Assembly (NCBI GenBank): GCA_964291395.2
Contig: OZ219858.1
Span: forward strand, 288,001 to 352,000
Direction of reading: 5' to 3'
From: Alphaproteobacteria bacterium
GTDB taxonomy: Bacteria > Pseudomonadota > Alphaproteobacteria > UBA2966
DNA: 64,000 nt
The notes under the pieces were generated by a model. That model had not been told where the DNA came from. It saw only the letters and a list, made by a program, of their open reading frames with translations, and did not search any database. Positions within the stretch are counted from its first letter, which is position 1; every line of letters starts with the position of its first letter. Of the stretch, positions 38,346-57,468 are shown piece by piece. A program made the translations under genes and the position numbers.

Positions 38346-38434
38346 GGAGGGGTGCCGGAGTGGCCGAACGGGGCGGTCTCGAAAACCGTTGTACGCACTG
38401 CGTACCGTGGGTTCGAATCCCACCCCCTCCGCCA
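38346..38434 (+). tRNA. tRNA-Ser (anticodon CGA)
   Basis: Acceptor GGAGGGG/CCCCTCC, anticodon arm GCGGT-CTCGAAA-ACCGT, long variable arm, GTGGG-TTCGAAT-CCCAC T arm, discriminator G and encoded CCA. Confidence 0.97.
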
Positions 38435-38489
38435 TTCTCCTATCCCGTCAATACCCATGAGTGCTCTGAAAACCGATGTGGGGCTGTCC

Positions 38490-38705
38490 GTGGCAAGGCT
38501 GAACGCCGCGAAGGTCTACGAGGCGAACCTGCCGCGGCGATGTGCTGGCCGTCCTGAAGCCGATACGGACCGTGAGGCCGGGAACGGCAGGACGCGTCCG
38601 GCAGCGCATTCGCACAATTCTCCGATGGTGCGGGGCACACGACTACTGCGCCGGCAACGCGGCGGGGGAAGCGCTGAACGGCGCCCTTCCGCCCATGCCG
38701 CGCCG
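38490..38705 (+). pseudogene. P4-like tyrosine integrase remnant
   Basis: GTG-ARLNAAKV N-terminus joined by deletion to DVLAVLKPIRTVRPGTAGRVRQRIRTILRWC...NAAGEALNGALPPMP (core-binding region). Catalytic domain absent. Confidence 0.75.
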
Positions 38706-38726
38706 GTCGGCCGGTCGGCCGCAAAG

Positions 38727-38760
38727 GCGAGACTAAGCGAGACTAGCCGAGACTAGGCGA
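38727..38760 (+). repeat. 10-bp tandem repeat, ~3.4 units (consensus GCGAGACTAG)
   Basis: gcgagactaa-gcgagactag-ccgagactag-gcga. The same unit recurs at 63654-63680. Confidence 0.8.
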
Positions 38761-38879
38761 ACAAAAGCACCTGCAGGGTCCGGCCGGAGCCTCGGCGGTG
38801 AAGCGGGGCGCCGCCCTCAGGACCGGGCCGTGACGCGGACGTCCGGACCGGAATCCTCGGGCAGTATGTCCGCCGCGAT

Positions 38880-38982
38880 GCTTTCGGCGACGCGCCGCCG
38901 CCTCGCGCACGGAATGCCGCGCGAGGTGGGCATAACGAGCCGTGGTCCGGGCCTGGGTGTGGCCGAGGAGCTTGTCGATCAT
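38880..38982 (-). pseudogene. Tyrosine integrase C-terminal remnant
   Basis: MIDKLLGHTQARTTARYAHLARHSVREAAAR = LLGH...TxxY catalytic box II. Confidence 0.8.
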
Positions 38983-39242
38983 GGGGTTGTTGAAAAGTCC
39001 GGCAGCCGTGATTCTCTGTCCCCATATCTTGTGTTCGTTTCTGGGACGCTACGAGATGTTGGGACGCAAGGCTCGCGACCAGTTGGAACTGTTCGTTACC
39101 GGGTCGCTCGATCAACTGGTGCCCGAGGATCATGTTCTGGCCCGCGTGGATCGTGTGCTCGACCTTGGGTGGTTGCGCGAGGAAGTGGCGGATTGCTACT
39201 GCGGGGATAATGGCCGTCCGGGTGTCGATCCGGAGATGGCGG
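38983..39242 (+). mobile_element. IS1182/IS5-like insertion sequence, left end plus truncated transposase (ATG 39056)
   Basis: End-like GGGGTTGTTGAAAAGTCC at 38983, then MLGRKARDQLELFVTGSLDQLVPEDHVLARVDRVLDLGWLREEVADCYCGDNGRPGVDPE (DUF772-type transposase N-terminus). Confidence 0.78.
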
Positions 39243-39363
39243 CCAACCCCGACGGAAAGATCGCCGTGCCTCCCGAGACTGACGCACCTGAGCCCGGCCG
39301 CCCCGGGACTGGACCACGTAGACCTTGCGGCCGCTGGCGTGGACGCGCACGCCAAAGCCGCCG
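39243..39363 (-). pseudogene. Integrase arm-DNA-binding (DUF4102-type) N-terminal remnant
   Basis: GFGVRVHASGRKVYVVQSRG then, after a frameshift, AGLRCVSLGRHGDLS. Confidence 0.72.
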
Positions 39364-39505
39364 CCCTCCCCGTGCAGGGCGCATGGCTCGGGCAGACCCG
39401 GCTGGATGGCAGGGAGCCCGGTGCATAAGAACAACGCGACATCCCTTCAGGCACTGCCACTTGCATGGCAACTCGGGTAAACTTATCCCGAATGTGAGGT
39501 CGGAC

Positions 39506-41248
39506 ATGCCAAACGCTTTGCTGGTCTACCCGGAACACCCTCCCACCTACTGGGGGGCCACCTATGCGCTGGAGATGTCGGGGATCAAAGCCGCCTACCC
39601 GCCTCTTGGGTTGCTAACCATCGCCGCGATGTTTCCCCCAGGCTATGAGCTCCGCCTGGTGGACATGAACGTGAATGCTTTGCATGACGCCGATCTCGAG
39701 TGGGCGGATTTTGTGTTCACGTCCACGATGATCACTCAGCAACTGTCGCTTCGTGCCGTGATCGAGCGGTGCAACCGCGAAGGGGTTCCGGTGGTAGCCG
39801 GTGGGCCTCATGCGACCATGTTTCACGAAGACATCGTAGGCGTGGACCACTTTGTGCTGGACGAGGTCGAAGAAACTTTCGGGGAATTCCTTGAGGATCT
39901 GCAAAGCGGAACGGCCAAGAGCATTTATCGGGAACCGCGAAAGCCGGATGTGACCCGGACGCCGGTTCCGCGCTTCGACCTCATCGATATGAAGAACTAC
40001 GCCAATATGAACGTGCAGTTCTCTCGGGGATGTCCTTTCGATTGTGAATTTTGCGACATCATCAAACTCTATGGTCGCGTGCCGCGTACCAAGTCGCCGG
40101 AACAGGTCGTGGAAGAGTTGGACTCCCTTTATCGGTTGGGTTGGCGCGGCCGCGTTTTCCTGGTTGACGACAACTTCATCGGGAACAAGCGAGATGCCAT
40201 GAATCTGCTGCCGAAGGTAGCCGAGTGGCAAAGGACAAGAGGACATCCGTTCACTCTGAGCACGGAGGCAAGCGCGAATCTTGCGCGAATGGACCAATTG
40301 ATGGATGCCATGATCGAGGCCGGTTTCGATACCGTGTTTGTCGGTATCGAATCTCCGAACCCCAGAACCCTGCTCAAGACCAAGAAGCCGCAAAATACCA
40401 GCAAGCACCAAGAGAACTACCTTTTCAATGCCGTTCGAAAAATCCAGCAGCATGGGATGCAAGTCCAAGGCGGGTTCATCTTGGGTCTGGATGGTGATGA
40501 CGAGGGCGTGTTCGACGCCCAGATCGAGTTCATTCAGGCGACCGGTATTCCCGTGGCCCCCATCTACCTGTTGACCGCCTTGAAGGGCACGGACATGTAC
40601 GAGCGCATGAAGTCGGAGAACCGGCTTCTGGAGGCGCCAATCGGAACCAATGCCATGCCTCTCAACTTCAAGCCGGAAATGGAATACAGGACATTGATCG
40701 AGGGATACGTGCGAGTGATAGGCACGCTCTACGATCCGACCCTGGAGAACTACTTCAGGCGTTGTCTGGCTCTGTTTAGGCATCTCAAACCTGTCCCACA
40801 CCTTCGAAAGCCTAAGGGCAGGAACGAGATCTACGCAGCCTTCATGGGTGTTCGCCGCTGTCTCTCAGACAGGCAAGTCCCTGCCTATTCGAAGTTCATT
40901 GGCAAGGTCTCCAAGGACTATCCACGCATGCTTCCCGAAGCAATCTATTTGGCTGCCATGGGTCATCACTTCGAGAGAATCAGCCGCCAGCAGATTGCAA
41001 TCCATGAGTTCCTCGGCTTCCTGAGAGGCGAGCTGGAGATGTTCCAGGAGGCGGCTTCGGGTGCCGCTTCGGAGGCCGAGGAAATCAGGAGCCGAAGAGA
41101 GACGTCGTTTGAACGAGCCCAGCAACGCTACGAGTCCATACCCGATGAGTTTCGATACCAGGGAGATGGGCTGGGCGATGCGCTAGAGTCCTTCCGACAT
41201 TCGGTGGATACACGGACGAATGAATTCGCGTGTGCTGAGATGGCATGA
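39506..41248 (+). CDS. Cobalamin-binding (class B-like) radical SAM enzyme, HpnP/DUF4070-type; candidate SwfC-like methylase
   Basis: GAGGT RBS before ATG 39506. B12-binding N-domain (PPLGLLTIAA, VVAGGPHAT), QFSRGCPFDCEFC (CxxxCxxC), VDDNFIGN, GFILGLDGD. 580 aa. Confidence 0.88.
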   Translation: MPNALLVYPEHPPTYWGATYALEMSGIKAAYPPLGLLTIAAMFPPGYELRLVDMNVNALHDADLEWADFVFTSTMITQQLSLRAVIERCNREGVPVVAGGPHATMFHEDIVGVDHFVLDEVEETFGEFLEDLQSGTAKSIYREPRKPDVTRTPVPRFDLIDMKNYANMNVQFSRGCPFDCEFCDIIKLYGRVPRTKSPEQVVEELDSLYRLGWRGRVFLVDDNFIGNKRDAMNLLPKVAEWQRTRGHPFTLSTEASANLARMDQLMDAMIEAGFDTVFVGIESPNPRTLLKTKKPQNTSKHQENYLFNAVRKIQQHGMQVQGGFILGLDGDDEGVFDAQIEFIQATGIPVAPIYLLTALKGTDMYERMKSENRLLEAPIGTNAMPLNFKPEMEYRTLIEGYVRVIGTLYDPTLENYFRRCLALFRHLKPVPHLRKPKGRNEIYAAFMGVRRCLSDRQVPAYSKFIGKVSKDYPRMLPEAIYLAAMGHHFERISRQQIAIHEFLGFLRGELEMFQEAASGAASEAEEIRSRRETSFERAQQRYESIPDEFRYQGDGLGDALESFRHSVDTRTNEFACAEMA

Positions 41249-41624
41249 TGAACATCGTCGAACCCACGTGTCGGCGAAGACGGGAGCATGGAAAATGGGC
41301 GTCGGGTCGTCATGATCGGGTTCCGGAGACCCGCCCATCCTCAAGGTGAATGTCTTCAATTGCGAACCATACGCGTCCCGCCAACCAGCCAGCTTGGCTG
41401 AAAATCCGTCAATGCACCAACATCCCAACTGGACCGGTCGACGGGGGCTGCCCATCGTGCGATATTTCTGAATTATTGGAGCAATATGGATTGAGGTGTT
41501 CGAAGGCAATACTGCGCCGATCAGGGAGGTATACGAATCGTGTTTCGCAGACCGATGCTCAAGGCAGCCCATCAGCACCGGAGGCCCGACGGGCTGATTT
41601 GAAGAACTTGACCCGTAAGGAACG

Positions 41625-42740
41625 ATGACACAGGATTCGACGAACCCTACCAGACCTGCCGAAAAGGCACGATGGCGCGGCTTCACGCAGTTAGCCCTGC
41701 TTCTTCTCGCAATCGCGGTTGCGCTGTACTTCGCCAGGGCTCCGAGCAGGGTGGAACGGGGACCGGTATCCGGTGCCGCACAGGCCAAACTGGTCCCGAG
41801 CATCGTTAAACCGGTCGCGACCGACCATGTCCTGACAGTCAATCTGACAGGAACCGTCAACCTCGCAAGGAAGACGACCGTAGTTTCCGAAGTCGTCGGA
41901 CGCGTGAACTGGGTTTCGCCCGCCTTCAGCAATGGGGGGACTATCCCGGCGAACGAGACGTTCATCAAAATCGATCCGGCTGAATACAGGCTTGAAGTCG
42001 AAGCGGCCAAGATGGCGGTCAAGGAAGCCGAGGCGCACGTCCAGATCGAAAAGGACCGCGCAGGCGAGGTCGCGAGAGCACAAGCACAGTTGGGAAAGGT
42101 AAGGGCGGCTCTGGCACTGGCAGAGCTGCGGCTCGAGCGGACCGAGATTTCGCTTCCCTTCGCATGCCGGGTTATCTCTTCGGATTTGGAGGTAGGTGAT
42201 CTGGTGGGGCCGGCCGACGCGGTCGGACGGATGTCGGTATTGGGTGTTGTCTATCGTCGGGACGCGCTGCAGGTCCGCGTGCCGATCGGTGCCGAAGACT
42301 TGGCGGATTTGGCCCCGGCGGTGGGTCGTTCGGCTCGGATCCATACCGATGGCGGCACATTTAGCGCTGAGGTGATGCGCGTATCGTCGGCGTTCTCGCC
42401 CAAGACGCGCCTTGCGGCGGTATTTCTCAAGTTTACGGAAGACGATTCGTCGGACAGGCCGCTCCCCCTTCCGGGCGAGTTCGCACACGTGGAGATTTCG
42501 GGACCCGAGCGCGACAATGTGTTTGTGCTACCCAAATCGTCTGCCTGGGAGAGCGACAAGGTCTGGGTGGTCAGAAACGGCGTGTTGAATTCCGCAACAG
42601 TCAGGACCATAGCCCGGACGGACGCCGGATGGGTCGTCGAGGCGTTCGACGCGGGCGAAGGCGTGGTCGTGGGCCCGCTGTCGGGTGCCCGGGAAGGCCA
42701 GGAGGTTGATGCCCGTCAAGCTACGACATCGTCTCAATAG
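41625..42740 (+). CDS. RND efflux periplasmic adaptor (MFP) subunit
   Basis: N-terminal TM anchor, VVSEVVGRV, IDPAEYRL helical hairpin, LERTEISLPF, PGEFAHVEI. Confidence 0.88.
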   Translation: MTQDSTNPTRPAEKARWRGFTQLALLLLAIAVALYFARAPSRVERGPVSGAAQAKLVPSIVKPVATDHVLTVNLTGTVNLARKTTVVSEVVGRVNWVSPAFSNGGTIPANETFIKIDPAEYRLEVEAAKMAVKEAEAHVQIEKDRAGEVARAQAQLGKVRAALALAELRLERTEISLPFACRVISSDLEVGDLVGPADAVGRMSVLGVVYRRDALQVRVPIGAEDLADLAPAVGRSARIHTDGGTFSAEVMRVSSAFSPKTRLAAVFLKFTEDDSSDRPLPLPGEFAHVEISGPERDNVFVLPKSSAWESDKVWVVRNGVLNSATVRTIARTDAGWVVEAFDAGEGVVVGPLSGAREGQEVDARQATTSSQ

Positions 42741-42784
42741 ACCTGTCTGATCAGTAACCCATCAAACGCCGAGCGCGAGCTATC

Positions 42785-45700
42785 TTGAAAAACGGACTGA
42801 TCGCATATTTTGTCGGGAATCCTGTCGCTGCCAGGCTCTTGATGATTTTCCTGATCCTCGGGGGTGTCATTGCCGGTTTACAACTCCGGTTCCAGAACGC
42901 CCCGGATCTGGACCTGCGTACGGTCACGATCACGCTGGCGTCACCGGGTTCCTCTCCCAGGGAGGTCGAGGAAGACATCAACCGCCGCATCGAGGAAAGC
43001 GTGGTCGGGCTCGCAGGAGTGGCCCGCGTCGTGGGCATAGCATCGGAAGGTTTCGCTCGAATTGAGGTGGAGCTCGAATCTTTTGCAAACGCGGACGCCG
43101 TCCTGGCTGATATCAAGAATGCGGTGGACGGCATTGAGAATTTTCCGCCCGCGAGCGCGGAGGCGCCGAGGGTGGAGATCAAGAAACTGTCGACCGAAGT
43201 ACTGACACTCTCCGTTTCGTCGCCGACACTGTCCGAGAACAGGCTCCGTCTGACGGCCGAGGACATTCGCGACGAGTTATTGGCCCTGCCTTCTGTGTCC
43301 TTGGTTCGCTTAAGGGGCACACGCGATAGAGAAATCGCGATCGAGATGAGCGAAGAGGAGTTGCGCCGCAATAATCTGTCCCTTTCCGAAGTGGCGAGGA
43401 AGGTGCGGCGGGCGTCGGTCAACCTGACATTTGGTGAATTGCGCACGGATGCAGGTGGAGTGGTCCTTCAGGTTATCGGGAAAAAAACGACCGGCAAGGA
43501 ATTTGAAAGCATTCCCCTGACGACTCGAGTCGACGGCACAATCATAAGGCTCGGCGACGTGGCAGAAATTCGCGACGGACTTGCCGACGAGCAAATAGTA
43601 TCCGAGGTCGACGGCAAGCCAACGCTGTTCGTTCGCGTCGAAGCGACCCAAGAACAATCGATCGTAGACGTCGCCGATAACGTCACGGAATGGCTTGCCA
43701 ACTACAAGCCTCCGGCCGGCGTCGAGGTCGATATCTGGGGTGACAGGGTCAAACCGATTTTCGACAGGTTCTCGGAAATATTGAGTAATGCCCTTATTGG
43801 AATCGTCCTTGTATTCGTTTGCCTCGTTCTTGTCTTCGATCTTCGGGTCGCGACCTGGATCACAGTGGGAATCCCCTTGTCGTTTGTCGCATCGTTGATG
43901 TTCTTTGAGATCGCGGGCCTGACCCTCAATATGGGAACGCTGTTTGCGTTCTTCTTGCTGATCGGCATCGTGGTCGACGACGCAGTTGTGGTAGGAGAGA
44001 GCATTGCGGCCGAAAGAGACCAGGGCAAGACCGCTCGGGAAGCGGCGATCTCTGGAGCCAAGATTGTTGTGGGGCCGATCACCGTAGGCGTACTCACAAC
44101 CGTTCTGGCATTTGTGCCACTTCTATTCGTAACGGCAGGAAATTACCAGATCGTACAGGTATTTCCCTACGTCGCATTTTTGGTCCTCTTTATTTCGCTC
44201 GCCGAAGCGTTCTGCATTTTGCCGTCGCATCTATCGCACGAAAAGGGATGGAGTCTTTCACCGCTACGCGATGTTCAGGAACGTGTGCGCGGTCGGCTCG
44301 ACGAATTGCGGGACGCCATCGTGGTCCCGATAGTCTCCTGGTCTGTCCGGCATGTCTTCTTGACATTTGCTTTCGGGATAGTTTTCGTGCTTGCCGCGAT
44401 TTGGTTGGTACGTTCAGAAACCGTCCGGGTGATCGTCTTTGACAGCGCCGCCAATCTCGGCAACACGATTCAGGCCGATCTGGAGTTGCCGGTCGGTGCT
44501 CCTTTCGATGCGACCGTAGCCGCGGCGCAGCGTTTCGTCCGAGCGGCCCGCGGCATTAACGAACAACTTGAAGGAGAGTCGATCAAGTCGGTTAGCCTCA
44601 TTGTGGGCAACCTTGGCGGCATCGCTGCGTCTCGGACGGGTCAAGACGACTCGATTCGGAGTCATCTCGCAACGGTGAGGCTGCAGCTCCATGACCGACC
44701 GCTTCGCGAGGCGTCGCCCGAAGTCATCGAGAGGGTATGGCGTCAAAATGTCGGCAACATGTCAAACTTGGAAAACGTCTCCATCCAGACCACCCGGGTC
44801 CGGTTCCAGCCCCCGGTCGCATACGCGCTCGTTCACGACGATCTTGAGGTCCTCCAGAAGGCTGCCGAAGAGTTGAGGTCGTTCATGGGCACGGTGTCCG
44901 GTCTCTACGGGCTATCGGACAGCCTGTCGCTCGGCAAGCGGTACTTCGAAATTCAGCTGACCCCGGCGGGGCAGGCGGCCGGGCTGACGCCGGCGATGAT
45001 CGGCAAGCAGCTGCGGGCCAACCTGCACGGTCTGGAAGTCCAGCGAATCCAACGCGGCCGCGACGAAATAAGAGTTGTGGTCCGGTATCCGGCGGAACGG
45101 CGGCGAAGCCTGCAAGAACTCGCCAGAGAGCGGATTGTCGGCCGTAACGGCAAAGAAATTCCGCTGTCCACCGTGGCACGTATCACTGAAAAACGGGAAC
45201 TCGCCACACTGACGCGCATCGATGGAAAGCCTGCGGCCTTGGTCAATGCATTTGCCGATTTCAACGAGACCACTCCGATACGGGCAAGGCGCGCAATCGC
45301 GCAGGAGTTCCTTCCCGACTTGCTCGCAAAATACCCTGGCCTCTCGATTTCCCGGGACGCCGGAGCCCGCGAGGAAAGGGCTATGCTCGAAACGTTAGGA
45401 GTGCTGGTGCCGATCGTCCTAGTCATCATGTACGGGCTGATGGCGTCATTCCTGCGGAGCTATTGGAAGCCGCTCGTAGCCGTGGTCGGCGTCCCGGTCG
45501 CCTTCGCCGGGGCTGTGATCGGCCATTGGGTGCTAGGTTGGCATCTGACCGCCATATCTCTGTTCGGCATGATTGGGGTCGCCGGGGTCATCGTCAATGA
45601 CGCGTTGGTTTTGCTCGATCGCTACAACACAATCCGCCGCGAGAACAAATCGATCCCGGCTATCGCGGCTGCGGCCGGGGCCACGCGAGACCGCTTTCGC

Positions 45701-45889
45701 GCGGTATTCCTGACCTCTCTGACAACCGTGTTGGGCCTCTCGCCGTTGCTCTACGAGCGAAGCGACGAGCTTTTGTTCCTCGTGCCGTTCGTGGTCAGCA
45801 TGCTGGGTGGCCTCCTTGCCGCGGGTATCTTCACACTGTTCGTCCTGCCGGCTCTGGTGATGTTCGTCGAGGGCCGCAGGGAAGCCTAG
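42785..45889 (+). CDS. RND efflux permease (AcrB/AcrD/AcrF family)
   Basis: 1034 aa. NPVAARLLM, PGSSPREVE, IGIVVDDAVVVGE, GVIVNDALVL, RFRAVFLTSLTTVLGLSPL. TTG start. Confidence 0.93.
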   Translation: MKNGLIAYFVGNPVAARLLMIFLILGGVIAGLQLRFQNAPDLDLRTVTITLASPGSSPREVEEDINRRIEESVVGLAGVARVVGIASEGFARIEVELESFANADAVLADIKNAVDGIENFPPASAEAPRVEIKKLSTEVLTLSVSSPTLSENRLRLTAEDIRDELLALPSVSLVRLRGTRDREIAIEMSEEELRRNNLSLSEVARKVRRASVNLTFGELRTDAGGVVLQVIGKKTTGKEFESIPLTTRVDGTIIRLGDVAEIRDGLADEQIVSEVDGKPTLFVRVEATQEQSIVDVADNVTEWLANYKPPAGVEVDIWGDRVKPIFDRFSEILSNALIGIVLVFVCLVLVFDLRVATWITVGIPLSFVASLMFFEIAGLTLNMGTLFAFFLLIGIVVDDAVVVGESIAAERDQGKTAREAAISGAKIVVGPITVGVLTTVLAFVPLLFVTAGNYQIVQVFPYVAFLVLFISLAEAFCILPSHLSHEKGWSLSPLRDVQERVRGRLDELRDAIVVPIVSWSVRHVFLTFAFGIVFVLAAIWLVRSETVRVIVFDSAANLGNTIQADLELPVGAPFDATVAAAQRFVRAARGINEQLEGESIKSVSLIVGNLGGIAASRTGQDDSIRSHLATVRLQLHDRPLREASPEVIERVWRQNVGNMSNLENVSIQTTRVRFQPPVAYALVHDDLEVLQKAAEELRSFMGTVSGLYGLSDSLSLGKRYFEIQLTPAGQAAGLTPAMIGKQLRANLHGLEVQRIQRGRDEIRVVVRYPAERRRSLQELARERIVGRNGKEIPLSTVARITEKRELATLTRIDGKPAALVNAFADFNETTPIRARRAIAQEFLPDLLAKYPGLSISRDAGAREERAMLETLGVLVPIVLVIMYGLMASFLRSYWKPLVAVVGVPVAFAGAVIGHWVLGWHLTAISLFGMIGVAGVIVNDALVLLDRYNTIRRENKSIPAIAAAAGATRDRFRAVFLTSLTTVLGLSPLLYERSDELLFLVPFVVSMLGGLLAAGIFTLFVLPALVMFVEGRREA

Positions 45890-46177
45890 GAGATCGAAGC
45901 CTCGGGAGACTGAGGGACCCTCGCTGATGCCTTCGCTTGAGTCCGGCACCAGTCGCGCTGATGTAATTGTGTCACTGCGTTACGATGATGAAGCCACGCA
46001 CCTCAGCGGCGGCGGGATCGTGTGCCAGCGCGTCGGCGTCGAAGAGCACGCTCGGGACGACCGGATCGATGGCCGCGCGCGCTCCCTTCCATGGATGAGG
46101 TTCGTGCGAACCCTTCCCTTTGCATTGACCGTCAGCACCTCGCTATGCAGGCGCCGCATCAGTGGGCGAGTTCGAAC

Positions 46178-46942
46178 ATGAACGTCAACGGGCAAACGGC
46201 GATCGTTACCGGGGGCGCATCCGGACTGGGCGAAGCGACCGCGCAAGCGCTCGCGGCCGCTGGCGCCAGGGTGGGCATCCTCGACATGAACGAGGATCTG
46301 GCACGAAGGGTTGCGGCTGAGATCGGCGGTGCCGCCGCGGTGTGCGACGTGGTCGACTCCGCGAGCCACGAGGCCGCCGTCGCAGAAGTGCGCGAGCAAT
46401 TGGGACCGGCACGCATATTGGTCGCCTGCGCGGGCATCGCTCCCAGCGCCAAGCTGATAGGACGCGACGGCAAAGCAAGTCCGCTCGGAACAGTCACCCG
46501 CGCGATCGGCGTCAACCTGATCGGCACTATCAACTCGTGCCGGCTGGCTGCCGCCGACATGGCCGCTCTGGAGCCGATGAACGACAACGAGCGCGGCTGC
46601 ATCGTAACCACGGCCTCGGTTGCCGCCTTCGAGGGGCAGAGCGGACAGCTCGACTACGCCGCGTCGAAGGGCGGCGTCGCGGCGATGACGATCCCGCTGG
46701 CGCGCGAGCTTGCCAGCGAGGGCATCCGCGTGAACTGCATCGCGCCCGGTCTGATGGACACGCCGATGATGGGCGGCTTGTCAGGGCCGGCGAAGCAATT
46801 TCTGCTCGAAACGACGGTTTATCCCAAGCGCCTCGGAGGCGCGGACGAGTACGCCGCGCTGGTCGTCCATATCGCGGAGAACACCTTCATGAACGGCTCA
46901 GTGATCCGGTTCGATGGCGCGCTCCGAATGGGACCGAAATAG
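46178..46942 (+). CDS. SDR oxidoreductase, HSD10 / type II 3-hydroxyacyl-CoA dehydrogenase-like
   Basis: TGGASGLG, CAGIA, TASVAAFEGQSGQLDYAASKGGV, IAPGLMDTPM, NGSVIRFDGALRM. Confidence 0.9.
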   Translation: MNVNGQTAIVTGGASGLGEATAQALAAAGARVGILDMNEDLARRVAAEIGGAAAVCDVVDSASHEAAVAEVREQLGPARILVACAGIAPSAKLIGRDGKASPLGTVTRAIGVNLIGTINSCRLAAADMAALEPMNDNERGCIVTTASVAAFEGQSGQLDYAASKGGVAAMTIPLARELASEGIRVNCIAPGLMDTPMMGGLSGPAKQFLLETTVYPKRLGGADEYAALVVHIAENTFMNGSVIRFDGALRMGPK

Positions 46943-47235
46943 CGCACGCCATGGTAAGGAGGCGATTAGCTCGTCGAGCGAGCGAGAGAACCCGCGACCA
47001 TTGGGGCCCGCGATGTGCCGCTCGCTGTCAATTGCCAAGAAGTACATATGCTGCTTCCGTTATACGTCCATGGACACAACCTGCGCACTTCACGACGACC
47101 TCGTGGACTGCGAACAATGACCGCACTAGAATGGATATGGAGACCTAATTTCCTTCATGTTTTGGCAAATTTCAGGCGATTGGCCGACGATCGTCGCCGA
47201 GCGGTTGTCGCCTTGGCGATACACCGAATAACGGC

Positions 47236-50200: not shown

Positions 50201-53200
50201 CTGCAAACAGCCCTTTATCCGGTTCCCAATTCCGACGGTGAGTTCACCTTCCAGATTTCGACGCTGCCCTACGAGGTCGATCCGAAGAGCGAGCTGCACT
50301 GCCGCGGGAGGGTGCGCTTGATCAGCGTGCGACCGGAGCTGGACGCACCGGAAACGCTGTCGGACTTGGAGACGTCGGCTTACGAGCCTCTTCAATATGC
50401 CGCCGACGATGAAATCTACGAGCGCTTCGAAGTGGTTCTCGGGGAAACCTTCCAGTACGGCCCCCACTTCAGGAACATTCGGAAGCTCAGGCGTGAGCGA
50501 GAGACCGGCCGCCTCCTGCTGGATGTCGGCGTCGACGAGGCGCTGTGGGCGGGTGCAAGAGAAGAGGGATACGTCTCCTTTCCGCCTCTTCTCGACGGCG
50601 GGCTGCAGTCGTTTCTCTACGACTTGATGCTTGGCGCTGATCGTTTTGCCATTCCTCTGCGGGCGGAAAACGTGACGTTCTTGGGCGCGCCGACGGTGCC
50701 GCGCCTCGTTTGCCAACTGACCTATCCCGGCGGCAAGCGGTACGAAGTCGATGACAAGGGTCAATACAACGTTCCCAACGGCGAGTGGGTTTCCGGCCGG
50801 TTGAACTTCTACGACGAGGCGACCGGCGCGCTCACCCTTCACGTCGAGAAATACATCTCCTTCATCTCGTATCCCAGGCGGGTTGACCTGCCGCACAGCA
50901 AGCACCGTATCGCCTGGCAACCGAAGTTCGTCGCCGACGGCCGCGAGATCGCGGACCGGCTGCCCGGGGGCGAGATCGAGCCGTCGGCCCTGCTTGCCGC
51001 CCTGGAACGGGGGGAGGACGGCGACGGGCGAGTCTGCCATGCGCTGGAGTTCGCGGGCTCCAGGGAGCCGGAGCAGACCGTGCTTCAGAGCTGCCTCGAC
51101 CACCTCTCACGGGAGGAGACGCAGAGCGAGTTCTGGCTCGTCGCCGACGATGAGGAGGGCGCGCGGACATGCTTCGAGGCCTTCCACGCGCAGGACGCCG
51201 CGCTGCGCTTCGACTGCCTCGATCCGGCTGCGCGGCAGCCCTCCGCGCTCGATACGGGCCTGCTGCGCTCCGGTGCGGCGGAAGTCCTGTTCCTCCACCG
51301 CGACGAGGATGCGTTCATGCCCGACGACTGGCGGTTCTGGCAGGAGGTGGCGGTCGCGGGCGGATTGGCGCTGGTTTCCCACGCGGACGGCGCGGACATA
51401 GAGCCCGGCGCGGGCTGGACCACGCTTCGTGCCGGACGGCGAGCGACTCTGCTGCAGGCGCCGCCGCAGCGGGCGGGCGAAAGGGATGAGGCGGTGCTGC
51501 CGGCTCCGCGCTGGGTGATGGGGGCGCCCGATAGCCTGGCGAGGGACTGGACATCCCTACTCGACAATCCTGCGGTCTACCCGATCCCCTTCGAGGGCCC
51601 CGCGTCAAGCGATCCCTTCGAGGTCGAGACGTGGCCGCAGGCGGCGGACGTGCAGGCGATCGACGTTTTCTGCGACTGGGATCCGGAGGATGCGACGGGC
51701 GAGAGGGCGGTCTCGCAATTCGTCGCCCTGATTCAGTCGCTGGTGCCCTACAGGATCGACCAGGCCAGCTGCCCATGCCGCGTCACCGTGGCGACCCGCA
51801 AGGCGGTGTTCGAGCCTGAGGATGCACGCGGCAGCGCGCTCTGGGGTGCGGTGCGCACCATGGCGATGGAGATCGGCGAAGAGGCCCAGCTCGACTTCCG
51901 CCTCGTGGACCTGGGAGCCGCCGACGACCTGGAGACGCTGGCGTGGATCGCGCGGCACGACCTGCGCGAGCGCGAGCTTGCGGTGCGCGAGGGTCGCCTG
52001 TGGGTGCCGCGCGTCGTAAGCAATCGCGATCAGTACCCGAGCATCCCCGCCGGAGAGGACCCTCCCTACCGGCTCTTCCTGGACAATGCGGGGCAGATCG
52101 GCGGCCTCAGGATGAAGACCTACGATCCTCCGCCGCTGGCCCCGCACGCCGTGGAGATCGACGTCGTCGCGTCCGCACTCAACTTCCGCGACGTCATGGT
52201 GACGCTCGGGCTGCTGCCGTCACTGGCCTACGAGCGCTCCGCACTCGGCCGCGAGGTCGGCATGGAAGCGAGCGGCGTAGTCCGCCGCGCCGGCACGGCC
52301 GTGGAAGGGCTCGAGCCCGGCGATGAGGTGGTCTTCGTCGACGGCGGCTGTATCGCCAATCGCACTGTGGTGGGCCAGCACCGCGTGTTCCTTAAGCCCG
52401 CGGGCCTCACCATGGAAGAGGCCGCGTCATCGCTCTCGGTCTACGTCACCGCCTACTACTCGCTGATTCACCTGGCCCGGCTGCGCAAGGGCCAGCGCGT
52501 CCTGATTCACTCGGCCATGGGCGGCATCGGACAGGCCGCCATCGCGCTCGCCAACAACGTAGGCGCCGAGATTTATGCAACCGCGGGGAGCGAGAACAAA
52601 CGCGACCAGTTGCTCGCGCTCGGCGTCCGGGCGGCCTTCGATTCCCACAGCGAGGACTGGTACGACGGGTTGATGAAGGCGACCGGCGGCCAGGGTGTCG
52701 ATGTCGTGCTGAACTCCCTCGCGGGCCGCCACGTTCCGCTCTGCTTGCAGGCGCTCAGGGCGGGCGGCTGGCATTGCGAAATCGGCAAGGTCGACATCTA
52801 CGCCGACAGCGCCCTCGGCCTCCGCGTCTTCCGCAAGAACCTGCGCTTCGCGGCCATCGACCTCGACCGCCTGATGGTGGACGACCCGCTGCTCTCCCGC
52901 GAGCTCTCCCAGGCCTGCCTCGACCTGCTCGATCGTGGTGTGGTGCCGCCGTTGCCGGTCACCGCTTTCTCCTACGGCGACTACGCGAAGGCGCTCCGCC
53001 TGATGACCTCCGGCAAGCACCAAGGAAAACTGGTGCTGAAGGCGCCGCCGGCGTCCGCCGATCCGGACTTTCCCATCGACGACCGGCGGCCGTTGCTGGA
53101 CCCCGAGGGGACCTATCTCGTGACCGGCGGCCTCGGCGGCTTCGGTCCGCGGCTCCTGCCCTACCTGGTCACAGCCGGCGCCCGCCACCTGACCCTGATG

Positions 53201-54298
53201 GACCGCGATCCCGAGCGCCGCCGCAGCGAGAACTGGCTGCGCCAATCCACGACTCTTGCGGACATAGGGCAGGGGGTCGAGATCGACATCGTTTCCGGCG
53301 ACGTGGCGGAGGAGGCCGACGTGCGCCGCTGCGTCGCCAACGTGAGGAAGCCGCTCAAGGGCGTGTTCCATCTCGCCGGCGCGCTGGACGACTGTCTGCT
53401 GGCGGACATGACGGCGGAGTCCATCGCCCGCGTGTTCGCGCCGAAGGCCCACGGCGCGCTCTATCTCCACCGTGCTACCGAAGGCCTCGCGCTCGATCAC
53501 TTCGTCATGGTGTCGTCGCTCTCGTCGGCGTTCGGCAATCCGGGGCAGATCAACTACGGCGCCGCCAACGCCTACATGGACGGCCTCGCCGCCTGCCGCC
53601 GCCGGCAAGGACTGCCGGCTTTGTCCTACAACCTGGCGGCGGTCTCCGATGCGGGCATGGCCGCGCGCAACCTCGGCCTGCTGCGATTGATGAAAGCCGC
53701 GGGCATACCCCCGGTGAGCAGCTATTGCGCCATCGCCAACCTCGACTATGCGCTCCGCACGATGGCCGATGGCGACCATCTGATCACCGCACTCTTCAAG
53801 CGCGTGCTCTGGAGCGTCGATTCCGCCGACTACATGCGGTCCGGCCGCCTGATGAGCAACCAGGATGCGTTCAAGATGGACTCCGACGAGCAACTGACGG
53901 TCGATGGCGTCATGGCGCAGATCGCCGCCAAGGTCGCCGAGCTCTGCGGCCACGACGAGGGCGGTCTGGAGGAACCCCTCTCCAGCTTCGGCCTCAACTC
54001 CATCTCCGTCGCCGAACTGGGGGCGTTCATCCAGAGCGAGTTCGGCTTCCAGGCGAGCGCGCTCGAGCTGATGACCACGGCCTCGTGCCAGTCGCTGGCG
54101 CACGCCATCGTCTTCGGCACGACGAGCGACGAGGAGGCGGAAGCCGAGACGGACGGTGAAGACATCGACGATGCGCCCCTCGCCGCGCAGCGCCTTGTTC
54201 GCCGCAAGCCCTCGGTGTTCGCCAGCCCGCCCGAAGACCACTTCCCGCCGGCGCCCTGTTCCGGAAAAGGCGCCGCGAGTGCCCTGACCGCCGAGTAG
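47236..54298 (+). CDS. Mono-modular highly reducing type I PKS/FAS, KS-AT-DH-pseudoMT-ER-KR-ACP (SwfA-like); one frameshift near 49840
   Basis: KS: CTACSAG, EAHATGT, KSNVGH, INSFGFGGANGH. AT: FAGQGTQW, QCALVEL, GHSSGE, IAFHS. DH: HRVHHASIMP, LLDGGLQ. ER: LNFRDV, IHSAMGGIG. KR: TGGLGGFG, LDD, GQINYGAAN. ACP: FGLNSIS. Removing 1 nt at ~49840 joins ORFs 47236-50109 and 49793-54298 into 2353 aa. Confidence 0.9.
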
Positions 54299-54360
54299 CG
54301 CGATCCGGCGACAGGGGAGCGGGCTCCGCATCGGCGCAGTGAGTATCAAGGCAAGGCAGC

Positions 54361-56856
54361 ATGGCCGACGCATGTGTCGCTGACCGGACGGTGCCGCCGC
54401 TCATCGGCCTCCTGCCGCCGCAATGCCGGAGAGACGTGGACGAGCTGCGCCGCGTCATTCACGCGACGGTCTCGCGAGAGACGCCGGCCGAAGCCGTGAC
54501 ACCAACAGACTTTCGAGAGGTTTTGCTGACCGGGGCAACCGGCTTCGTCGGACGCTTCTTCCTGCGCGAGCTTCTGTGGCAGAACGAGCAGCTGATCGTG
54601 CACTGCCTGGTCCGCGCCGAGAGCGCCGAACACGGGTTCGAGCGCTTGCGCGACGCCCTGGAGCGGGCCGAAATCTGGGAGGAGGAGTGGACGTCGCGCC
54701 TGCGCGTGGTGCCCGGCGACGTCTTCCAAGAGCATTTCGGACTGAGCGAGTCAGTGTTCGACGGGCTCTGCCAGCGGATCGACGCGGTCTATCACCTGGC
54801 TGCCAACGTGGGCCTCGTCCAGTCCTATGCCGATATACGCGACGAGAACGTGCTGGGCCTTCGCTCCGTGCTCGAGCTCTGCCTGCGGACCCGACTCAAG
54901 CATCTGTTTTACGGATCCACCATGGCTGTTTTCCCCGAGTATTTTTGTGACTTTTCGCTGGAATACAGACAGAGCCGCATCGACGATCAGATGTCCCCCG
55001 ACCTCGCCGACATGAAGAAGGCCTTTCCGCTCGGCGCCATCGGGTATCCGTGGAGCAAGCTGGTGGCCGAGCAAGGCGTGTTGTTCGCGCAGGCGGCCGG
55101 TGTGCCGGTCGCGATCTTTCGCCTGCCGCAGATGGGGCTCTCCAGCACGGGGTACACGCAGGCAAACAATTTTCCGGCCCGCCTGTTCGCTGCGGCGATG
55201 CAACTGGGAAAGGCACCGGAAGGCTTTTCCATTCAACGGAATGCCGAGCCGGTCGATACCGTCAGCGAAATCTGCACGGCAATCTCACTCAACTCCGACC
55301 GCCGCTTCACCGTCTATCACTGCTGCGATCCGAATCCGCCCTACGACGATCTCGAAGTGGCGGACTTCGGCTTCTACTGGGAAGTAGTCCCCTACCAATC
55401 CTTCAGGAGGTCGTGCCAGGCTCTCGGCGACAGCTCTCCGCTGCGCGGGCAGTGGGTCCTGGTCGACCACTTCGCGCCCTATTGGTTCGGCGAGGACAAG
55501 GCGGGACACGCGCCGCCGATCAGCGATCGCGCCATCCGGGAGGATTGCCCGCACCCGATCAAGTGGCCGGCACTGCTGATCCGCCACGCGCGCTCCTACG
55601 ACTGGGTCAGGCGTCATCGGGAGAGATGGCCCTATCCGGTCCCCCAAGGCCGTCTGGACTTCGACGGACTCATCGCTCAGGCCGAGAGATACGCCGAGCG
55701 CATGGGCGTGCCCTTCGAGCCAACCTGCCCCTCGTGGATGCGCGCCGGCCTCAAGCAACTCGTGGAGGCGCTGAAATCGCCGGAGTCCGGGCTGCGGGAA
55801 ACCCGGGTCAGCCACGTCATCTATGGGTTGACCCGTGCGCTGCGCAACAATGCAAAACTCGCCCGCGAGGCGCGGCAGCACCCAGAGATCGAGCGGGAGG
55901 AGATCGAGCGGCCGGTCTTCATCGTCGGCATCAACCGTACCGGCACGACATTTCTGCATCGTCTGTTGTCGCGCGATCCCCAGTTCTGGGCACTGCGGCG
56001 CTACGAATTGACGGAGCCGGTGCTGTCCTCTGGCAAATACGCCACCGTCGCAGGCACGGCCGAGGATCCCCGCCGGGCCTACGCGGAAGAGCTACTAGGC
56101 GCGACCAATGTCGTCGATACGCTCTCCGGGCTCCACCGCACCGATATCGACGAGCCAGAGGAGGACTTGTGGATCCTCTGGCTTACGTTCTCGACCTGGA
56201 TATTCGCGACGGCGTACCACGTACCGGCCTATGGTCGTTGGCTCGCAGAAGCCGAGCCACGCAATGCCTACGCGCATCACCGGCGCGTCATGCAGCACTT
56301 CACCTGGCAGCGGCGGCAGCGGGAGCCGCAGAGCCAGCGGCACTGGCTGCTCAAGATGCCTTTTCATCTCATGGAATTGGAAGTGCTGCTGGAGACCTAT
56401 CCGGATGCCGTCTTCATCCAGACCCATCGCGAGCCCGTCGAGTTCATGGGCTCGTGGAACAGTATAGTGGAGCGGATACGAGGCTTTTCCACAGAGCCGA
56501 GGCCGCCGCACGAGGCCGGCGCCGAGCAGCTGGCCTTCATGAGCGGCATGTTGAACGGCGCGATGCGGTTTCGAGCCTCCAATCCCACGCTCGAAGAACG
56601 CTGGGTCGACGTGCGCTACGCCGATCTGGTCGATGACCCGATGGCCGTCGTGAACGACATCTACGCACGCCTCGGCTGGCCCCTTGAACCGCTCGCCGCC
56701 CACGCCATGCAGGGGTGGCTCACGCTTCAAGAGGAGCAGCGCCGGCACGAACCCCGGCACGAGTACAGGCTGGAGGACTATGGCCTCACACCGGCGGCCG
56801 TGAACGAGGCGTTCGCGCCGTATCGTGAGTACGTTGCGACCCGCGGTATCGCGTAA
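54361..56856 (+). CDS. Thioester reductase (R) - sulfotransferase (ST) fusion (SwfB-like)
   Basis: N-half: VLLTGATGFVG, VYHLAA, GYPWSKLVAE (YxxxK), IFRLP. C-half: PVFIVGINRTGTTFLHRLL (PAPS 5'-PSB loop), WLLKMPFH, FIQTHREP, YADLVDDP. Confidence 0.9.
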   Translation: MADACVADRTVPPLIGLLPPQCRRDVDELRRVIHATVSRETPAEAVTPTDFREVLLTGATGFVGRFFLRELLWQNEQLIVHCLVRAESAEHGFERLRDALERAEIWEEEWTSRLRVVPGDVFQEHFGLSESVFDGLCQRIDAVYHLAANVGLVQSYADIRDENVLGLRSVLELCLRTRLKHLFYGSTMAVFPEYFCDFSLEYRQSRIDDQMSPDLADMKKAFPLGAIGYPWSKLVAEQGVLFAQAAGVPVAIFRLPQMGLSSTGYTQANNFPARLFAAAMQLGKAPEGFSIQRNAEPVDTVSEICTAISLNSDRRFTVYHCCDPNPPYDDLEVADFGFYWEVVPYQSFRRSCQALGDSSPLRGQWVLVDHFAPYWFGEDKAGHAPPISDRAIREDCPHPIKWPALLIRHARSYDWVRRHRERWPYPVPQGRLDFDGLIAQAERYAERMGVPFEPTCPSWMRAGLKQLVEALKSPESGLRETRVSHVIYGLTRALRNNAKLAREARQHPEIEREEIERPVFIVGINRTGTTFLHRLLSRDPQFWALRRYELTEPVLSSGKYATVAGTAEDPRRAYAEELLGATNVVDTLSGLHRTDIDEPEEDLWILWLTFSTWIFATAYHVPAYGRWLAEAEPRNAYAHHRRVMQHFTWQRRQREPQSQRHWLLKMPFHLMELEVLLETYPDAVFIQTHREPVEFMGSWNSIVERIRGFSTEPRPPHEAGAEQLAFMSGMLNGAMRFRASNPTLEERWVDVRYADLVDDPMAVVNDIYARLGWPLEPLAAHAMQGWLTLQEEQRRHEPRHEYRLEDYGLTPAAVNEAFAPYREYVATRGIA

Positions 56857-57102
56857 CATTGCCGACGCCACGGGTATCGTATGTCTTCTTGCGGGACTGA
56901 GCGCCCGGTTCTCCGAGGCGCCTCTCGAAATTCGGATAGGCCCGTGAGGGTCCGACTCAACGCTCCGGCCGATCAACATTAGAGGTGGGAAGCGTTCATC
57001 CCATTTCCTCCTCGTTCCATAACCCAACGATGGACCAATCCACTGAAAGTGAATCAGTCGAGGTACTACTTTGGGGCGGCGAGTCGGGAATTCCAGCGGC
57101 GT

Positions 57103-57423
57103 GTGAATCTGATGCTCGGCGAGATGCCGGTGCGCGCGGTCGTGTACTCCCATTCCCACATCGATCATTTTGGCGGCGTGCACGGCGTGATCAGCGAGGC
57201 TGACGTGACCTCCGGAGACGTGCAGGTCTTTGCGCCCAAAGGCTTCATGCAAGCGGTTGCCTCGGACAACGTGTCCGCGCGAACGGCCATTTCGCGACGA
57301 GCGACAATGCAGTACGGGCGGGCAGCCAATATGCTTGCGGATGTATTCGAACAACTCGGCTACCAATACGAAAGCGCGAGCTTGCGTAACGTGTTCCTGA
57401 CCGCGGCGCAGGAATTGCGCAAT
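57103..57423 (+). pseudogene. SdsA1-type alkyl sulfatase remnant (internally deleted)
   Basis: LGEMPVRAVVYSHSHIDHFGGV...VQVFAPKGFM...SRRATMQYG (MBL-fold metal motif) fused directly to LADVFEQLGYQYESASLRNVFLTAAQELR (end of the dimerisation domain). Confidence 0.8.
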
Positions 57424-57445
57424 TGCAATGAGTTAAGAGAGAGCA

Positions 57446-57468
57446 CGAATCCCACCTCTTCCGCCATT
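57446..57468 (+). repeat. att-type direct repeat: copy of the tRNA-Ser 3' end
   Basis: 21/23 identity to 38414-38436. Both differences are C>T. Confidence 0.85.

What the first reader, a model, noticed from the sequence alone, without database searches (positions are those of the whole stretch)
39506..57423. Candidate complete alkyl-sulfate lipid system: swf-type PKS + R-ST fusion + B12 radical SAM + RND exporter + alkyl sulfatase relic
Seen: all island cargo is co-oriented on + and includes a fully reducing mono-modular PKS without TE, an R-ST didomain 62 nt downstream, a B12 radical SAM, an RND pair, an SDR and an alkyl sulfatase fragment. Established (from memory): this KS-AT-DH-ER-KR-ACP + R-ST (+ radical SAM) architecture defines the swfABC clusters of marine sponge symbionts, whose product I recall as unknown. 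Inference: iterative acyl synthesis, radical methylation, reductive release to an alcohol, O-sulfation, RND export and sulfatase recycling would give a methyl-branched alkyl sulfate. Linking swf to an exporter, a sulfatase and a defined alphaproteobacterial island may be new.
Basis: partly seen in the sequence, partly recalled or inferred. Interest (0 to 1): 0.88.

Follow-up and report, generated by a model that had tools for sequence, protein, structure and literature searches.

The report
swf lipid-sulfate cluster with exporter
This is a copy of the sponge-symbiont "swf" gene cluster, thought to make a sulfated fatty alcohol, sitting on a decayed mobile island beside an efflux pump that recurs next to swf genes in many other symbionts.

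Summary
Window 39506-57423 holds, all on the + strand: a B12 radical SAM gene, an MFP/RND efflux pair, an SDR, a KS-AT-DH-ER-KR-ACP synthase with no thioesterase, an R-ST didomain gene 62 nt downstream, and a gutted alkylsulfatase fragment.

The synthase meets every published SwfA signature that I tested, so this is a swf cluster (Della Sala 2013). That paper already proposed a possibly methylated alkyl sulphate, so the product idea is not new.

New here:
- The cluster lies on a 19-kb decayed island at tRNA-Ser(CGA), bounded by a 23-nt direct repeat and carrying integrase relics.
- An orthologous RND and/or MFP gene lies within 10 kb of swfB in 21 of 80 related loci, in four arrangements. Among 41 relatives, the RND orthologue occurs only in the two genomes that have swfB.
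- Other lineages carry an MFS pump, a CysN/CysC fusion (PAPS synthesis) or a SulP permease instead. All fit an exported sulfated product.
- The SDR recurs in 12 of 80 loci.

Not supported: the sulfatase. It is absent from 80 of 80 loci.

swfA here has one extra base near 49839 that splits it. I could not settle whether this is a real mutation or an assembly error. The product remains untested.

The parts
38346..38434 (+). tRNA-Ser(CGA), the integration target at the left edge of the island
   Evidence: ARAGORN
38414..38436 (+). Left copy of the 23-nt att-like direct repeat (the 3' end of the tRNA)
   Evidence: the repeat finder D9. The DNA search found 2 matches, and 0 of 100 shuffles reached that.
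38503..38736 (+). Tyrosine-integrase relic (central domain only)
   Evidence: Pfam Phage_int_M, E = 7.8e-8, 32.9 bits against a cut-off of 27
38743..39446 (-). Weak relics of a second integrase: a C-terminal box at 38743-39048 and an arm-binding domain at 39096-39446
   Evidence: Pfam Phage_integrase E = 0.028 and Arm-DNA-bind_3 E = 0.0048, both below their cut-offs
39506..41248 (+). swfC-like class-B (B12-binding) radical SAM enzyme, 580 aa, with a CPFDCEFC cluster motif
   Evidence: Pfam; sequence. Orthologues at 59-81% identity occur in 45 of 80 swfB loci. No NCBIfam equivalog.
41625..42740 (+). RND periplasmic adaptor (MFP)
   Evidence: Pfam HlyD_3; NCBIfam RND_mfp above its cut-off; found in 12 of 80 loci
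42785..45889 (+). RND inner-membrane permease, 1034 aa, of a swf-linked orthologous group
   Evidence: Pfam ACR_tran, E = 5e-126. Found in 18 of 80 loci at 55-72% identity. At 50% identity or more it occurs only in G000 and G005 among 41 relatives.
46022..46942 (+). FabG-like SDR. The true start is probably later, because the domain begins at residue 58.
   Evidence: Pfam adh_short; NCBIfam FabG-like matches below their cut-offs; 12 of 80 loci at 65% identity or more
47236..49839 (+). swfA 5' part (KS-AT). The open frame then runs out of frame to 50109.
   Evidence: Pfam; motifs CTACS, HATGT, EPQVR, GHSSGE, IAFH, QCALVEL
49837..49842 (+). Site of the one-base insertion that splits swfA
   Evidence: DNA alignment with 7 orthologues
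49841..54298 (+). swfA 3' part (DH-ER-KR-ACP), with no thioesterase
   Evidence: Pfam; motifs
54361..56856 (+). swfB: thioester reductase + sulfotransferase didomain, 831 aa
   Evidence: Pfam; TIGR01746 at 211.2 bits; nearest PDB entries MxaA 4u7w and 2zq5/2z6v
57049..57423 (+). Alkylsulfatase relic: about 50 aa of the MBL domain joined to the last 40 positions of the dimerisation domain
   Evidence: Pfam; not recurrent near swf
57446..57468 (+). Right copy of the att-like direct repeat (21 of 23 identical)
   Evidence: Synteny with G005 resumes at 57525.

Best explanation
This is a swf ('sponge symbiont widespread FAS/PKS') cluster, extended by a dedicated efflux system. It sits on a decayed integrative island at tRNA-Ser(CGA) in an alphaproteobacterium.

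Inferred pathway:
1. SwfA, an iterative, fully reducing, malonyl-specific type I synthase, builds a saturated acyl-ACP.
2. The R domain of SwfB releases it reductively, probably as the primary alcohol. The neighbouring SDR may finish an aldehyde.
3. The ST domain of SwfB sulfates the alcohol with PAPS, giving a primary alkyl sulfate.
4. The B12 radical SAM enzyme adds a methyl branch at an unactivated carbon.
5. The MFP/RND pair exports the detergent-like product, which also protects the producer.

What is shown: the gene content, motifs, island borders, and recurrent linkage of the RND/MFP, SDR and radical SAM genes to swfAB. What is inferred: every chemical step and the export.

In this genome swfA carries a one-base insertion. 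The pathway is therefore either freshly inactivated or misassembled at that base. The alkylsulfatase relic is unrelated cargo.
For: Membership. The domain order, the lack of a TE, and the sizes match the paper: 2353, 831 and 580 aa against 2349/2361, 839/832 and 585. All SwfA signature motifs are present.

Redox and PAPS competence. SwfB keeps TGATGFVG and Y229/K233, which are invariant in 15 homologues. Its best solved relative is the terminal reductase MxaA, E = 1.6e-38. Its ST half matches 2zq5 and 2z6v.

Exporter link.
- RND and/or MFP orthologues (RND 55-72% identical) lie within 10 kb of swfB in 21 of 80 loci (RND 18, MFP 12). The arrangements are upstream co-directional, downstream convergent, downstream co-directional and upstream divergent.
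- The trait changes state at least 16 times on the SwfB tree.
- Paralogues in 41 relatives are 40% identical or less. The only matches at 50% or more are in G000 and G005, the only two genomes with swfB.
- After swfA and the radical SAM gene, the RND is the most recurrent neighbour in an unbiased clustering.

Sulfur theme elsewhere. A CysN/CysC fusion lies beside swfB in 10 loci, an MFS efflux gene in 7, and a SulP permease in L040.

The host can supply the needs. It has an APS kinase and two PPTases.

Island. GC is 0.56-0.60 over the radical SAM/RND part and 0.65-0.68 over swfAB.
Against: - No product has ever been shown for any swf cluster, according to the passages I read. No chemistry was tested here.
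- swfA is split in this assembly.
- 59 of 80 loci show no RND or MFP within the 10 kb seen. This includes the window's four closest SwfB relatives, L012-L015.
- The island has no outer-membrane factor gene.
- The radical SAM enzyme reaches no equivalog cut-off, so 'methylase' rests on its class alone.
- The loci are related MAGs, so counts across them are not independent.
Confidence: 0.6

Rival explanations
1. The sulfate is only a transient leaving group, as in CurM/Ols-type ST-TE modules. The final product would then be an alkene, an ether or an alkylated molecule, not an alkyl sulfate.
For: The 2013 paper raises this precedent for ST domains (passage). No alkyl sulfates are known to be widespread in sponges (same passage).
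Against: There is no TE or other eliminating domain in SwfA or SwfB. A sulfate on a primary carbon after reductive release has no beta-carboxylate to drive elimination (inference). Adjacent PAPS-synthesis, sulfate-permease and efflux genes in other lineages fit a stoichiometric, exported sulfated product better.
Confidence: 0.15
2. The RND/MFP pair, the SDR and the radical SAM gene are hitch-hiking island cargo or general efflux genes with no functional tie to swfAB.
For: The island is a mosaic. GC differs between the radical SAM/RND part and swfAB, and each gene's closest relative lies in a different genome. 59 of 80 loci lack an RND or MFP in view. The promoter and terminator scans are at chance level.
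Against: The same orthologous RND recurs beside swfAB in four arrangements, across alpha- and gammaproteobacterial MAGs. It co-varies perfectly with swfB in 41 relatives. The block RND-SDR-swfA-swfB recurs in L029 and L037.
Confidence: 0.15
3. In this organism the locus is a dead relic. The swfA frameshift is a real mutation, and the island is decaying along with its integrases and the sulfatase.
For: The extra base is not in a homopolymer and is absent from 7 of 7 orthologues. Other long genes in the window are intact, for example 1034, 1011 and 946 aa, which argues against a generally error-prone assembly. Integrase and sulfatase relics show decay. Nine loci in the clustered set (the window and eight others) also have a split or shortened swfA, against 58 loci with a frame of 2200 aa or more.
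Against: Apart from that base the gene is colinear, 92% identical to an intact orthologue and keeps all catalytic motifs. The inactivation would therefore be very recent, or the base is an assembly error. Laying three runs gave no indel row at the site, but no listed piece spans it, so this is unresolved.
Confidence: 0.5

Closest known systems
swfABC clusters of sponge metagenomes (Della Sala et al. 2013, PMC3908369)
   Same: The architecture matches: SwfA KS-AT-DH-ER-KR-ACP without a TE, SwfB R+ST, SwfC B12 radical SAM. The protein sizes match. The motifs HATGT, DPQ(V)R, IAFH, GHSSGE and QCALVEL are present. An integrase and transporters also stand near swfA in the published fosmid tables.
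   Different: Here the cluster has an RND/MFP pair and an SDR in one co-oriented block on a tRNA-Ser island, and the radical SAM gene sits upstream, not next to swfB. The paper reports no shared neighbours beyond swfABC and does not contain the words RND, efflux or AcrB.
CurM / Ols terminal ST-TE modules (terminal-alkene formation)
   Same: A PAPS-dependent sulfotransferase domain is attached to the end of a type I PKS pathway (precedent cited in the 2013 paper).
   Different: Those use ST with a thioesterase on a beta-hydroxyacyl-ACP. Here ST is fused to a thioester reductase and there is no TE.
MxaA-type terminal reductase domains (PDB 4u7w) and carboxylic acid reductases
   Same: They are the best solved relatives of the SwfB R half (E = 1.6e-38), and SwfB keeps the same nucleotide-binding and Tyr/Lys motifs. 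That MxaA reduces to the primary alcohol is my recollection, not a tool result.
   Different: MxaA is the last domain of a multimodular assembly line. SwfB is a free-standing protein fused to an ST.
Mycobacterial sulfolipid-1 pathway (an iterative PKS, a sulfotransferase and an MmpL-type RND exporter); recalled, not tested here
   Same: It follows the same logic: an iterative PKS lipid, PAPS-dependent sulfation and RND export. The ST half of SwfB matches 2zq5 and 2z6v, which I recall as mycobacterial Stf sulfotransferases.
   Different: There the sulfate is on trehalose, not on the lipid alcohol. The RND is of the MmpL type, whereas this one is AcrB-like with an MFP. There is no R domain.
AcrAB-type RND pumps and SdsA1/YjcS-type alkylsulfatases in detergent (SDS) tolerance; recalled
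   Same: An AcrB-family pump with an adaptor. The relic has the MBL plus Alkyl_sulf_dimr signature of that sulfatase family.
   Different: The pump is far from the named multidrug families: 357 bits against a cut-off of 1250. The sulfatase is a fragment of about 120 aa and is not linked to swf elsewhere.

Membership tests
swf cluster (SwfA) | Single module KS-AT-DH-ER-KR-ACP, no TE, about 2350 aa | tested here: met
   Pfam. The read-through is 2353 aa and colinear with intact orthologues. The paper gives 2349 and 2361 aa. Caveat: the gene is split by one base in this assembly.
swf cluster (SwfA) | KS motifs: HGTGT changed to HATGT, and the second Q of DPQQR replaced by I or V (paper section 8) | tested here: met
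   EAHATGT and EPQVR. The D is E in this clade.
swf cluster (SwfA) | AT motifs IAFH, GHSSGE and the signature QCALVEL, and the primer motif FSGQGTQW | tested here: met
   NIAFHS, GHSSGE and QCALVEL are exact. FAGQGTQW differs by one residue, S to A.
swf cluster (SwfB) | A free-standing R + ST didomain protein encoded next to swfA | tested here: met
   NAD_binding_4 + Sulfotransfer_3, 831 aa, 62 nt downstream. It is adjacent to swfA in 75 of 80 related loci; the five others showed no match to the swfA 3' part in the sequence held.
swf cluster (SwfC) | B12-binding radical SAM enzyme with CX3CX2C. It is optional (absent from fosmid PSA11D7). | tested here: met
   Pfam B12-binding + Radical_SAM; CPFDCEFC; 59-81% identical to the radical SAM genes in 45 of 80 swfB loci
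swf cluster | Direct sequence clustering with the published SwfA/B/C of fosmids PS11G3 and PSA11D7 | not testable with these tools
The nearest indirect evidence is that the Nitrospirota, Latescibacterota and Acidobacteriota MAG loci that the 2022 paper calls swf-like are represented among my loci at 57-62% SwfB identity.
swf cluster | Occurrence in sponge symbionts | tested here: inconclusive
   All 80 related loci are MAGs, some with sponge-derived names. The three runs that I laid hold pieces about 99% identical, but their organisms are coded.
tRNA-integrated genomic island | Lies at the 3' end of a tRNA, is bounded by a direct repeat of that end, has an integrase, and is absent from that site in a relative | tested here: met
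   The integrases are only relics, so the island is no longer mobile by itself.
CurM/Ols-type ST-TE alkene module | ST followed by a thioesterase at the end of the module | tested here: not met
   No thioesterase family in SwfA or SwfB
Alkylsulfatase (SdsA1/YjcS type) | Complete MBL, dimerisation and C-terminal domains | tested here: not met
   Only MBL profile positions 40-88 of 196 and dimerisation positions 99-138 of 139 remain, within a 176-aa frame

The most novel reading that the evidence does not exclude
swf clusters make detergent-like, partly methyl-branched alkyl sulfates that are actively pumped out. The pump is an RND/MFP pair in Proteobacteria and an MFS transporter in Latescibacterota and Acidobacteriota, with local PAPS or sulfate supply in Nitrospirales and Arenicellales. 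The whole module moves between at least eight bacterial phyla of sponge symbionts on integrative islands, some at tRNA-Ser(CGA). This would make it a shared, secreted chemical of the sponge holobiont that standard lipid work-ups have missed.
Probability: 0.35. Interest if true: 0.75.

Novelty: new variant of a known kind. Interest (0 to 1): 0.5.

Why it matters
swf is one of the two most abundant 'orphan' PKS families of sponge microbiomes, and its product has been unknown since 2013. Three results here sharpen the hypothesis of a secreted sulfated lipid:
- The core genes travel with a specific exporter.
- In other lineages they travel with PAPS-synthesis and sulfate-uptake genes.
- The module sits on an integrative island.

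The work also gives a defined, complete gene set to express, including intact versions in related genomes. It suggests why earlier two- or three-gene expression attempts may have failed or been toxic. It gives a concrete route for the spread of the cluster across phyla.

Tried and rejected
Sulfatase as part of the system: rejected. tblastn with the relic found 0 of 80 loci at E <= 1e-6. At E <= 1 it found only two chance-level hits, one in L022 and one in G005. PF14863 above its cut-off occurs in 1 of 5 swf genomes, more than 0.8 Mb from swf. The window's own genome has no full-length copy.

Frameshift check with public reads: unresolved. I laid X1, X2 and X3 (Logan contigs) and X21 (raw Hi-C reads) on 38300-57700. 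X21 gave only 6 reads. None of the 12 listed indel rows lies at 49839 (3 more were not shown), and no listed piece spans the site.

It is no evidence of expression.

Promoter and terminator scan: counts at chance level, so there is no operon claim.

IS-like stretch at about 39056-39260: it looked to me like a transposase N-terminus, but Pfam gave no match at E <= 1. I dropped it.

NCBIfam naming of the radical SAM enzyme: all 15 matches are far below their cut-offs, so no specific function can be assigned.

G005's tRNA-Ser/glnE site: it carries 12.6 kb of unrelated DNA. I did not annotate it.

Literature. Searches found no paper naming a swf product or an RND link. Papers seen:
- PMC3908369: abstract and outline, passages, section 8 in full.
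- PMC9426513, PMC4245539, PMC10227082 and PMC9864124: passages only.
- All others: search listing only.

Supplementary figures of the 2022 and 2023 papers (Fig. S1, Fig. S13) show swf-like cluster maps and may already depict neighbouring transporters. Supplements were closed, so I could not see them.


Full report
WHAT IS THERE

All listed genes lie on the + strand (Pfam; NCBIfam).

| Coordinates | Gene | Evidence |
|---|---|---|
| 39506-41248 | B12-binding radical SAM enzyme, 580 aa | B12-binding, Radical_SAM, DUF4070; CPFDCEFC motif |
| 41625-42740 | RND adaptor (MFP) | RND_mfp, 109.8 bits vs cut-off 94.9 |
| 42785-45889 | AcrB-family permease, 1034 aa | E = 5e-126 |
| 46022-46942 | FabG-like SDR | adh_short |
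| 47236-54298 | Type I synthase in two frames: KS-AT, then DH-ER-KR-ACP | no thioesterase match |
| 54361-56856 | Thioester reductase + sulfotransferase didomain, 831 aa | 62 nt after the synthase stop; TIGR01746 211.2 bits |
| 57049-57423 | Alkylsulfatase fragment | MBL profile positions 40-88 of 196 and dimerisation positions 99-138 of 139 |

THE FRAMESHIFT

Compared with 7 of 7 aligned orthologues, the window has one extra base in GTGTC-G-TCTGG at about 49839. Translated on either side of it, the two parts make a colinear 2353-aa protein, 92% identical to the intact SwfA of L012 and 69% identical to that of G005.

All catalytic motifs are kept:
- KS: CTACS, HATGT, KSNVGH
- AT: GHSSGE
- DH: HRVHHASIMP and DGGLQ
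- ER: GGIG
- KR: TGGLGGFG and YGAAN
- ACP: GLNS serine

In the clustered set, 58 loci have an swfA frame of at least 2200 aa. Nine loci (the window and eight others) have it split or shortened inside the contig.

I laid three public runs on the island. They contain pieces about 99% identical, for example 3602 nt with 24 differences in X1 and 1815 nt with 6 differences in X3. No listed piece spans 49839 and no indel row lies there. Whether the extra base is real therefore stays open. Other long genes of the window are intact and the context is not a homopolymer, so I put a real mutation at about even odds or slightly better.

IT IS A SWF CLUSTER

Della Sala et al. 2013 define swfA (KS-AT-DH-ER-KR-ACP), swfB (R+ST) and swfC (B12 radical SAM). 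They give these SwfA signatures:
- HGTGT changed to HATGT
- the second Q of DPQQR replaced by I or V
- the AT motifs IAFH and GHSSGE
- the unique QCALVEL
- the primer motif FSGQGTQW

The window has HATGT, EPQVR, IAFH, GHSSGE, QCALVEL and FAGQGTQW. The protein sizes also match. I could not compare directly with the published fosmid sequences.

The 2022 and 2023 passages I read still call the function unknown.

THE ISLAND

- The upstream flank is proB, obg, the L21 ribosomal protein gene and tRNA-Ser(CGA). The downstream flank is glnE.
- The last 21 nt of the tRNA plus 2 nt (38414-38436) recur at 57446-57468 with 21 of 23 identical. None of 100 shuffles gave two matches.
- Next to the tRNA lie an integrase central-domain relic (E = 7.8e-8) and two weaker integrase pieces on the other strand.
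- In the same-genus genome G005, homology stops at 38435 and resumes at 57525, with 12.6 kb of unrelated DNA between. G005's own swf cluster lies on another contig.
- GC is 0.56-0.60 over the radical SAM/MFP/RND part and 0.65-0.68 over swfAB. Each gene's best relative sits in a different genome. The island is therefore a mosaic.
- All named Obg relatives are Alphaproteobacteria.
- Only 1 of 5 same-genus genomes has swfB.

WHICH NEIGHBOURS BELONG TO THE SYSTEM

A scan of species-representative genomes with a SwfB alignment gave 332 relatives. The best 80 were kept, each with up to 10 kb of flank. All are MAGs, from Alpha- and Gammaproteobacteria, Nitrospirales, Latescibacterota, Acidobacteriota, Binatia, Rhodothermales and Opitutales.

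tblastn with the window's proteins gave these counts (n = 80, E <= 1e-6):

| Query | Loci with a match |
|---|---|
| swfA 3' part | 75 |
| swfA 5' part | 68 |
| radical SAM | 45 |
| RND | 18 (55-72% identity) |
| MFP | 12 |
| RND and/or MFP | 21 |
| SDR | 19, of which 12 at 65% identity or more |
| sulfatase relic | 0 |
| glnE | 0 |

Only about 2.9 kb upstream of swfA is visible in most loci, so the exporter counts are lower bounds.

An unbiased clustering of all ORFs in these loci plus the window and G005 ranks the neighbours in the same order: swfA 74, radical SAM 39, RND 18, MFP 11, and everything else 10 or fewer.

The RND occurs in four arrangements:
- Directly upstream and co-directional. 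The block RND-SDR-swfA-swfB is seen in L029 and L037, as in the window.
- Downstream and convergent (G005, L020, L021, L026, L044, L045, L078).
- Downstream and co-directional (L062, L067, L069).
- An MFP upstream and divergent (L016, L082, L083).

On a FastTree of 77 SwfB rows the trait changes at least 16 times. The tree itself is incongruent with taxonomy, which points to transfer between symbiont lineages.

Among 41 relatives of the window's genome, RND matches at 50% identity or more exist only in G000 and G005, the only two with swfB. All other matches are 40% identical or less.

Other recurrent neighbours elsewhere:
- a CysN/CysC fusion (PAPS synthesis) in 10 loci: eight Nitrospirales loci plus L020 and L054
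- an MFS efflux protein in 7 loci (Latescibacterota, Acidobacteriota and unclassified)
- STAS proteins in 10 loci
- a SulP sulfate permease upstream of the SDR in L040

The window's genome has an APS kinase and two PPTases elsewhere.

THE SULFATASE

It is a relic of about 120 aa at the right end of the island. It does not recur beside swf: 0 of 80 loci, even at E <= 1. Only 1 of 5 swf genomes searched has an alkylsulfatase domain above the cut-off, more than 0.8 Mb away. The 'recycling' step is unsupported.

MECHANISM

The sequence shows:
- a complete, fully reducing, malonyl-type (IAFH) iterative module without a TE
- a redox-competent R domain, with TGATGFVG and Tyr229/Lys233 invariant in 15 homologues, whose closest solved relative is the terminal reductase MxaA
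- an ST domain with a conserved GINRTGTTFLH loop, related to 2zq5 and 2z6v

I infer reductive release to the alcohol, O-sulfation by PAPS, C-methylation by the class-B radical SAM enzyme, a possible aldehyde-to-alcohol step by the SDR, and export with self-protection by the RND pair. An alkyl sulfate is a detergent of the SDS type, and that AcrAB-type pumps handle SDS is my recollection.

The main rivals are a transient sulfate leaving group, coincidental cargo, and a dead locus in this strain.

NOVELTY

The core cluster and its proposed product are known. What I did not find in print (searches; the 2013 paper has no occurrence of RND, efflux or AcrB) are:
- the specific RND/MFP and SDR extension
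- the PAPS, sulfate-permease and MFS neighbours
- the tRNA-Ser island

Supplementary cluster maps of the 2022 and 2023 papers could not be opened and might show some of this.

The interest is moderate. This is a solid, testable refinement of a 13-year-old orphan pathway, not a new kind of system.

Noticed in passing
L040:17834-17924, L041:15613-15703, L070:17118-17209: tRNA-Ser(CGA), the same isoacceptor as at the window's island, lies 3-8 kb from the swf genes in 3 of 60 scanned loci. It accounts for 3 of the 8 tRNAs found there. Only in L070 does swf lie on the tRNA's 3' side, as in the window. L040 and L041 are near-identical.
   Followed up: partly
L054:14961-17006; cluster 5: A CysN/CysC fusion (sulfate adenylyltransferase subunit + APS kinase) lies directly downstream of swfB in 10 loci: eight Nitrospirales loci plus L020 and L054.
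   Followed up: partly
L071:18799-20460; cluster 15: An MFS (TRI12-like) efflux protein lies beside swfB in 7 loci of Latescibacterota, Acidobacteriota and unclassified MAGs. It may be an alternative exporter where no RND is seen.
   Followed up: partly
L040:3-1043: A SulP-type sulfate permease (Sulfate_transp + STAS) lies just upstream of SDR-swfA in an Arenicellales-type MAG. Small STAS proteins recur upstream of swfA in 10 loci, as noted for the original fosmid.
   Followed up: no
L068:6139-9957 and L071:6141-9959: Two tandem B12 radical SAM paralogues lie between swfA and swfB, where other loci have one.
   Followed up: no
L086:5285-7990; cluster 21: An SDR + PhyH (phytanoyl-CoA dioxygenase-like) pair, fused in L086, recurs near swfB in 5 Latescibacterota-type loci. 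It may be a tailoring oxygenase.
   Followed up: no
L092 (G005:C2:106000-125000), positions 3985-16582: In the same-genus genome, the same tRNA-Ser/glnE site holds 12.6 kb of unrelated DNA, and a 99-nt piece of the sequence upstream of glnE is duplicated there (14598-14695). The site looks like an integration hot spot.
   Followed up: partly
L070:15524-16567: A reverse transcriptase (RVT_1) gene lies between swfB and tRNA-Ser.
   Followed up: no
L013, L020, L027, L035, L046, L057, L072, L084: swfA is split or shortened inside the contig in these eight loci, against 58 loci with a frame of 2200 aa or more. These could be assembly errors or recurrent decay.
   Followed up: no
window 39056-39260 (+): A short open stretch that looks to me like the N-terminus of an IS transposase. 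No Pfam match at E <= 1.
   Followed up: partly
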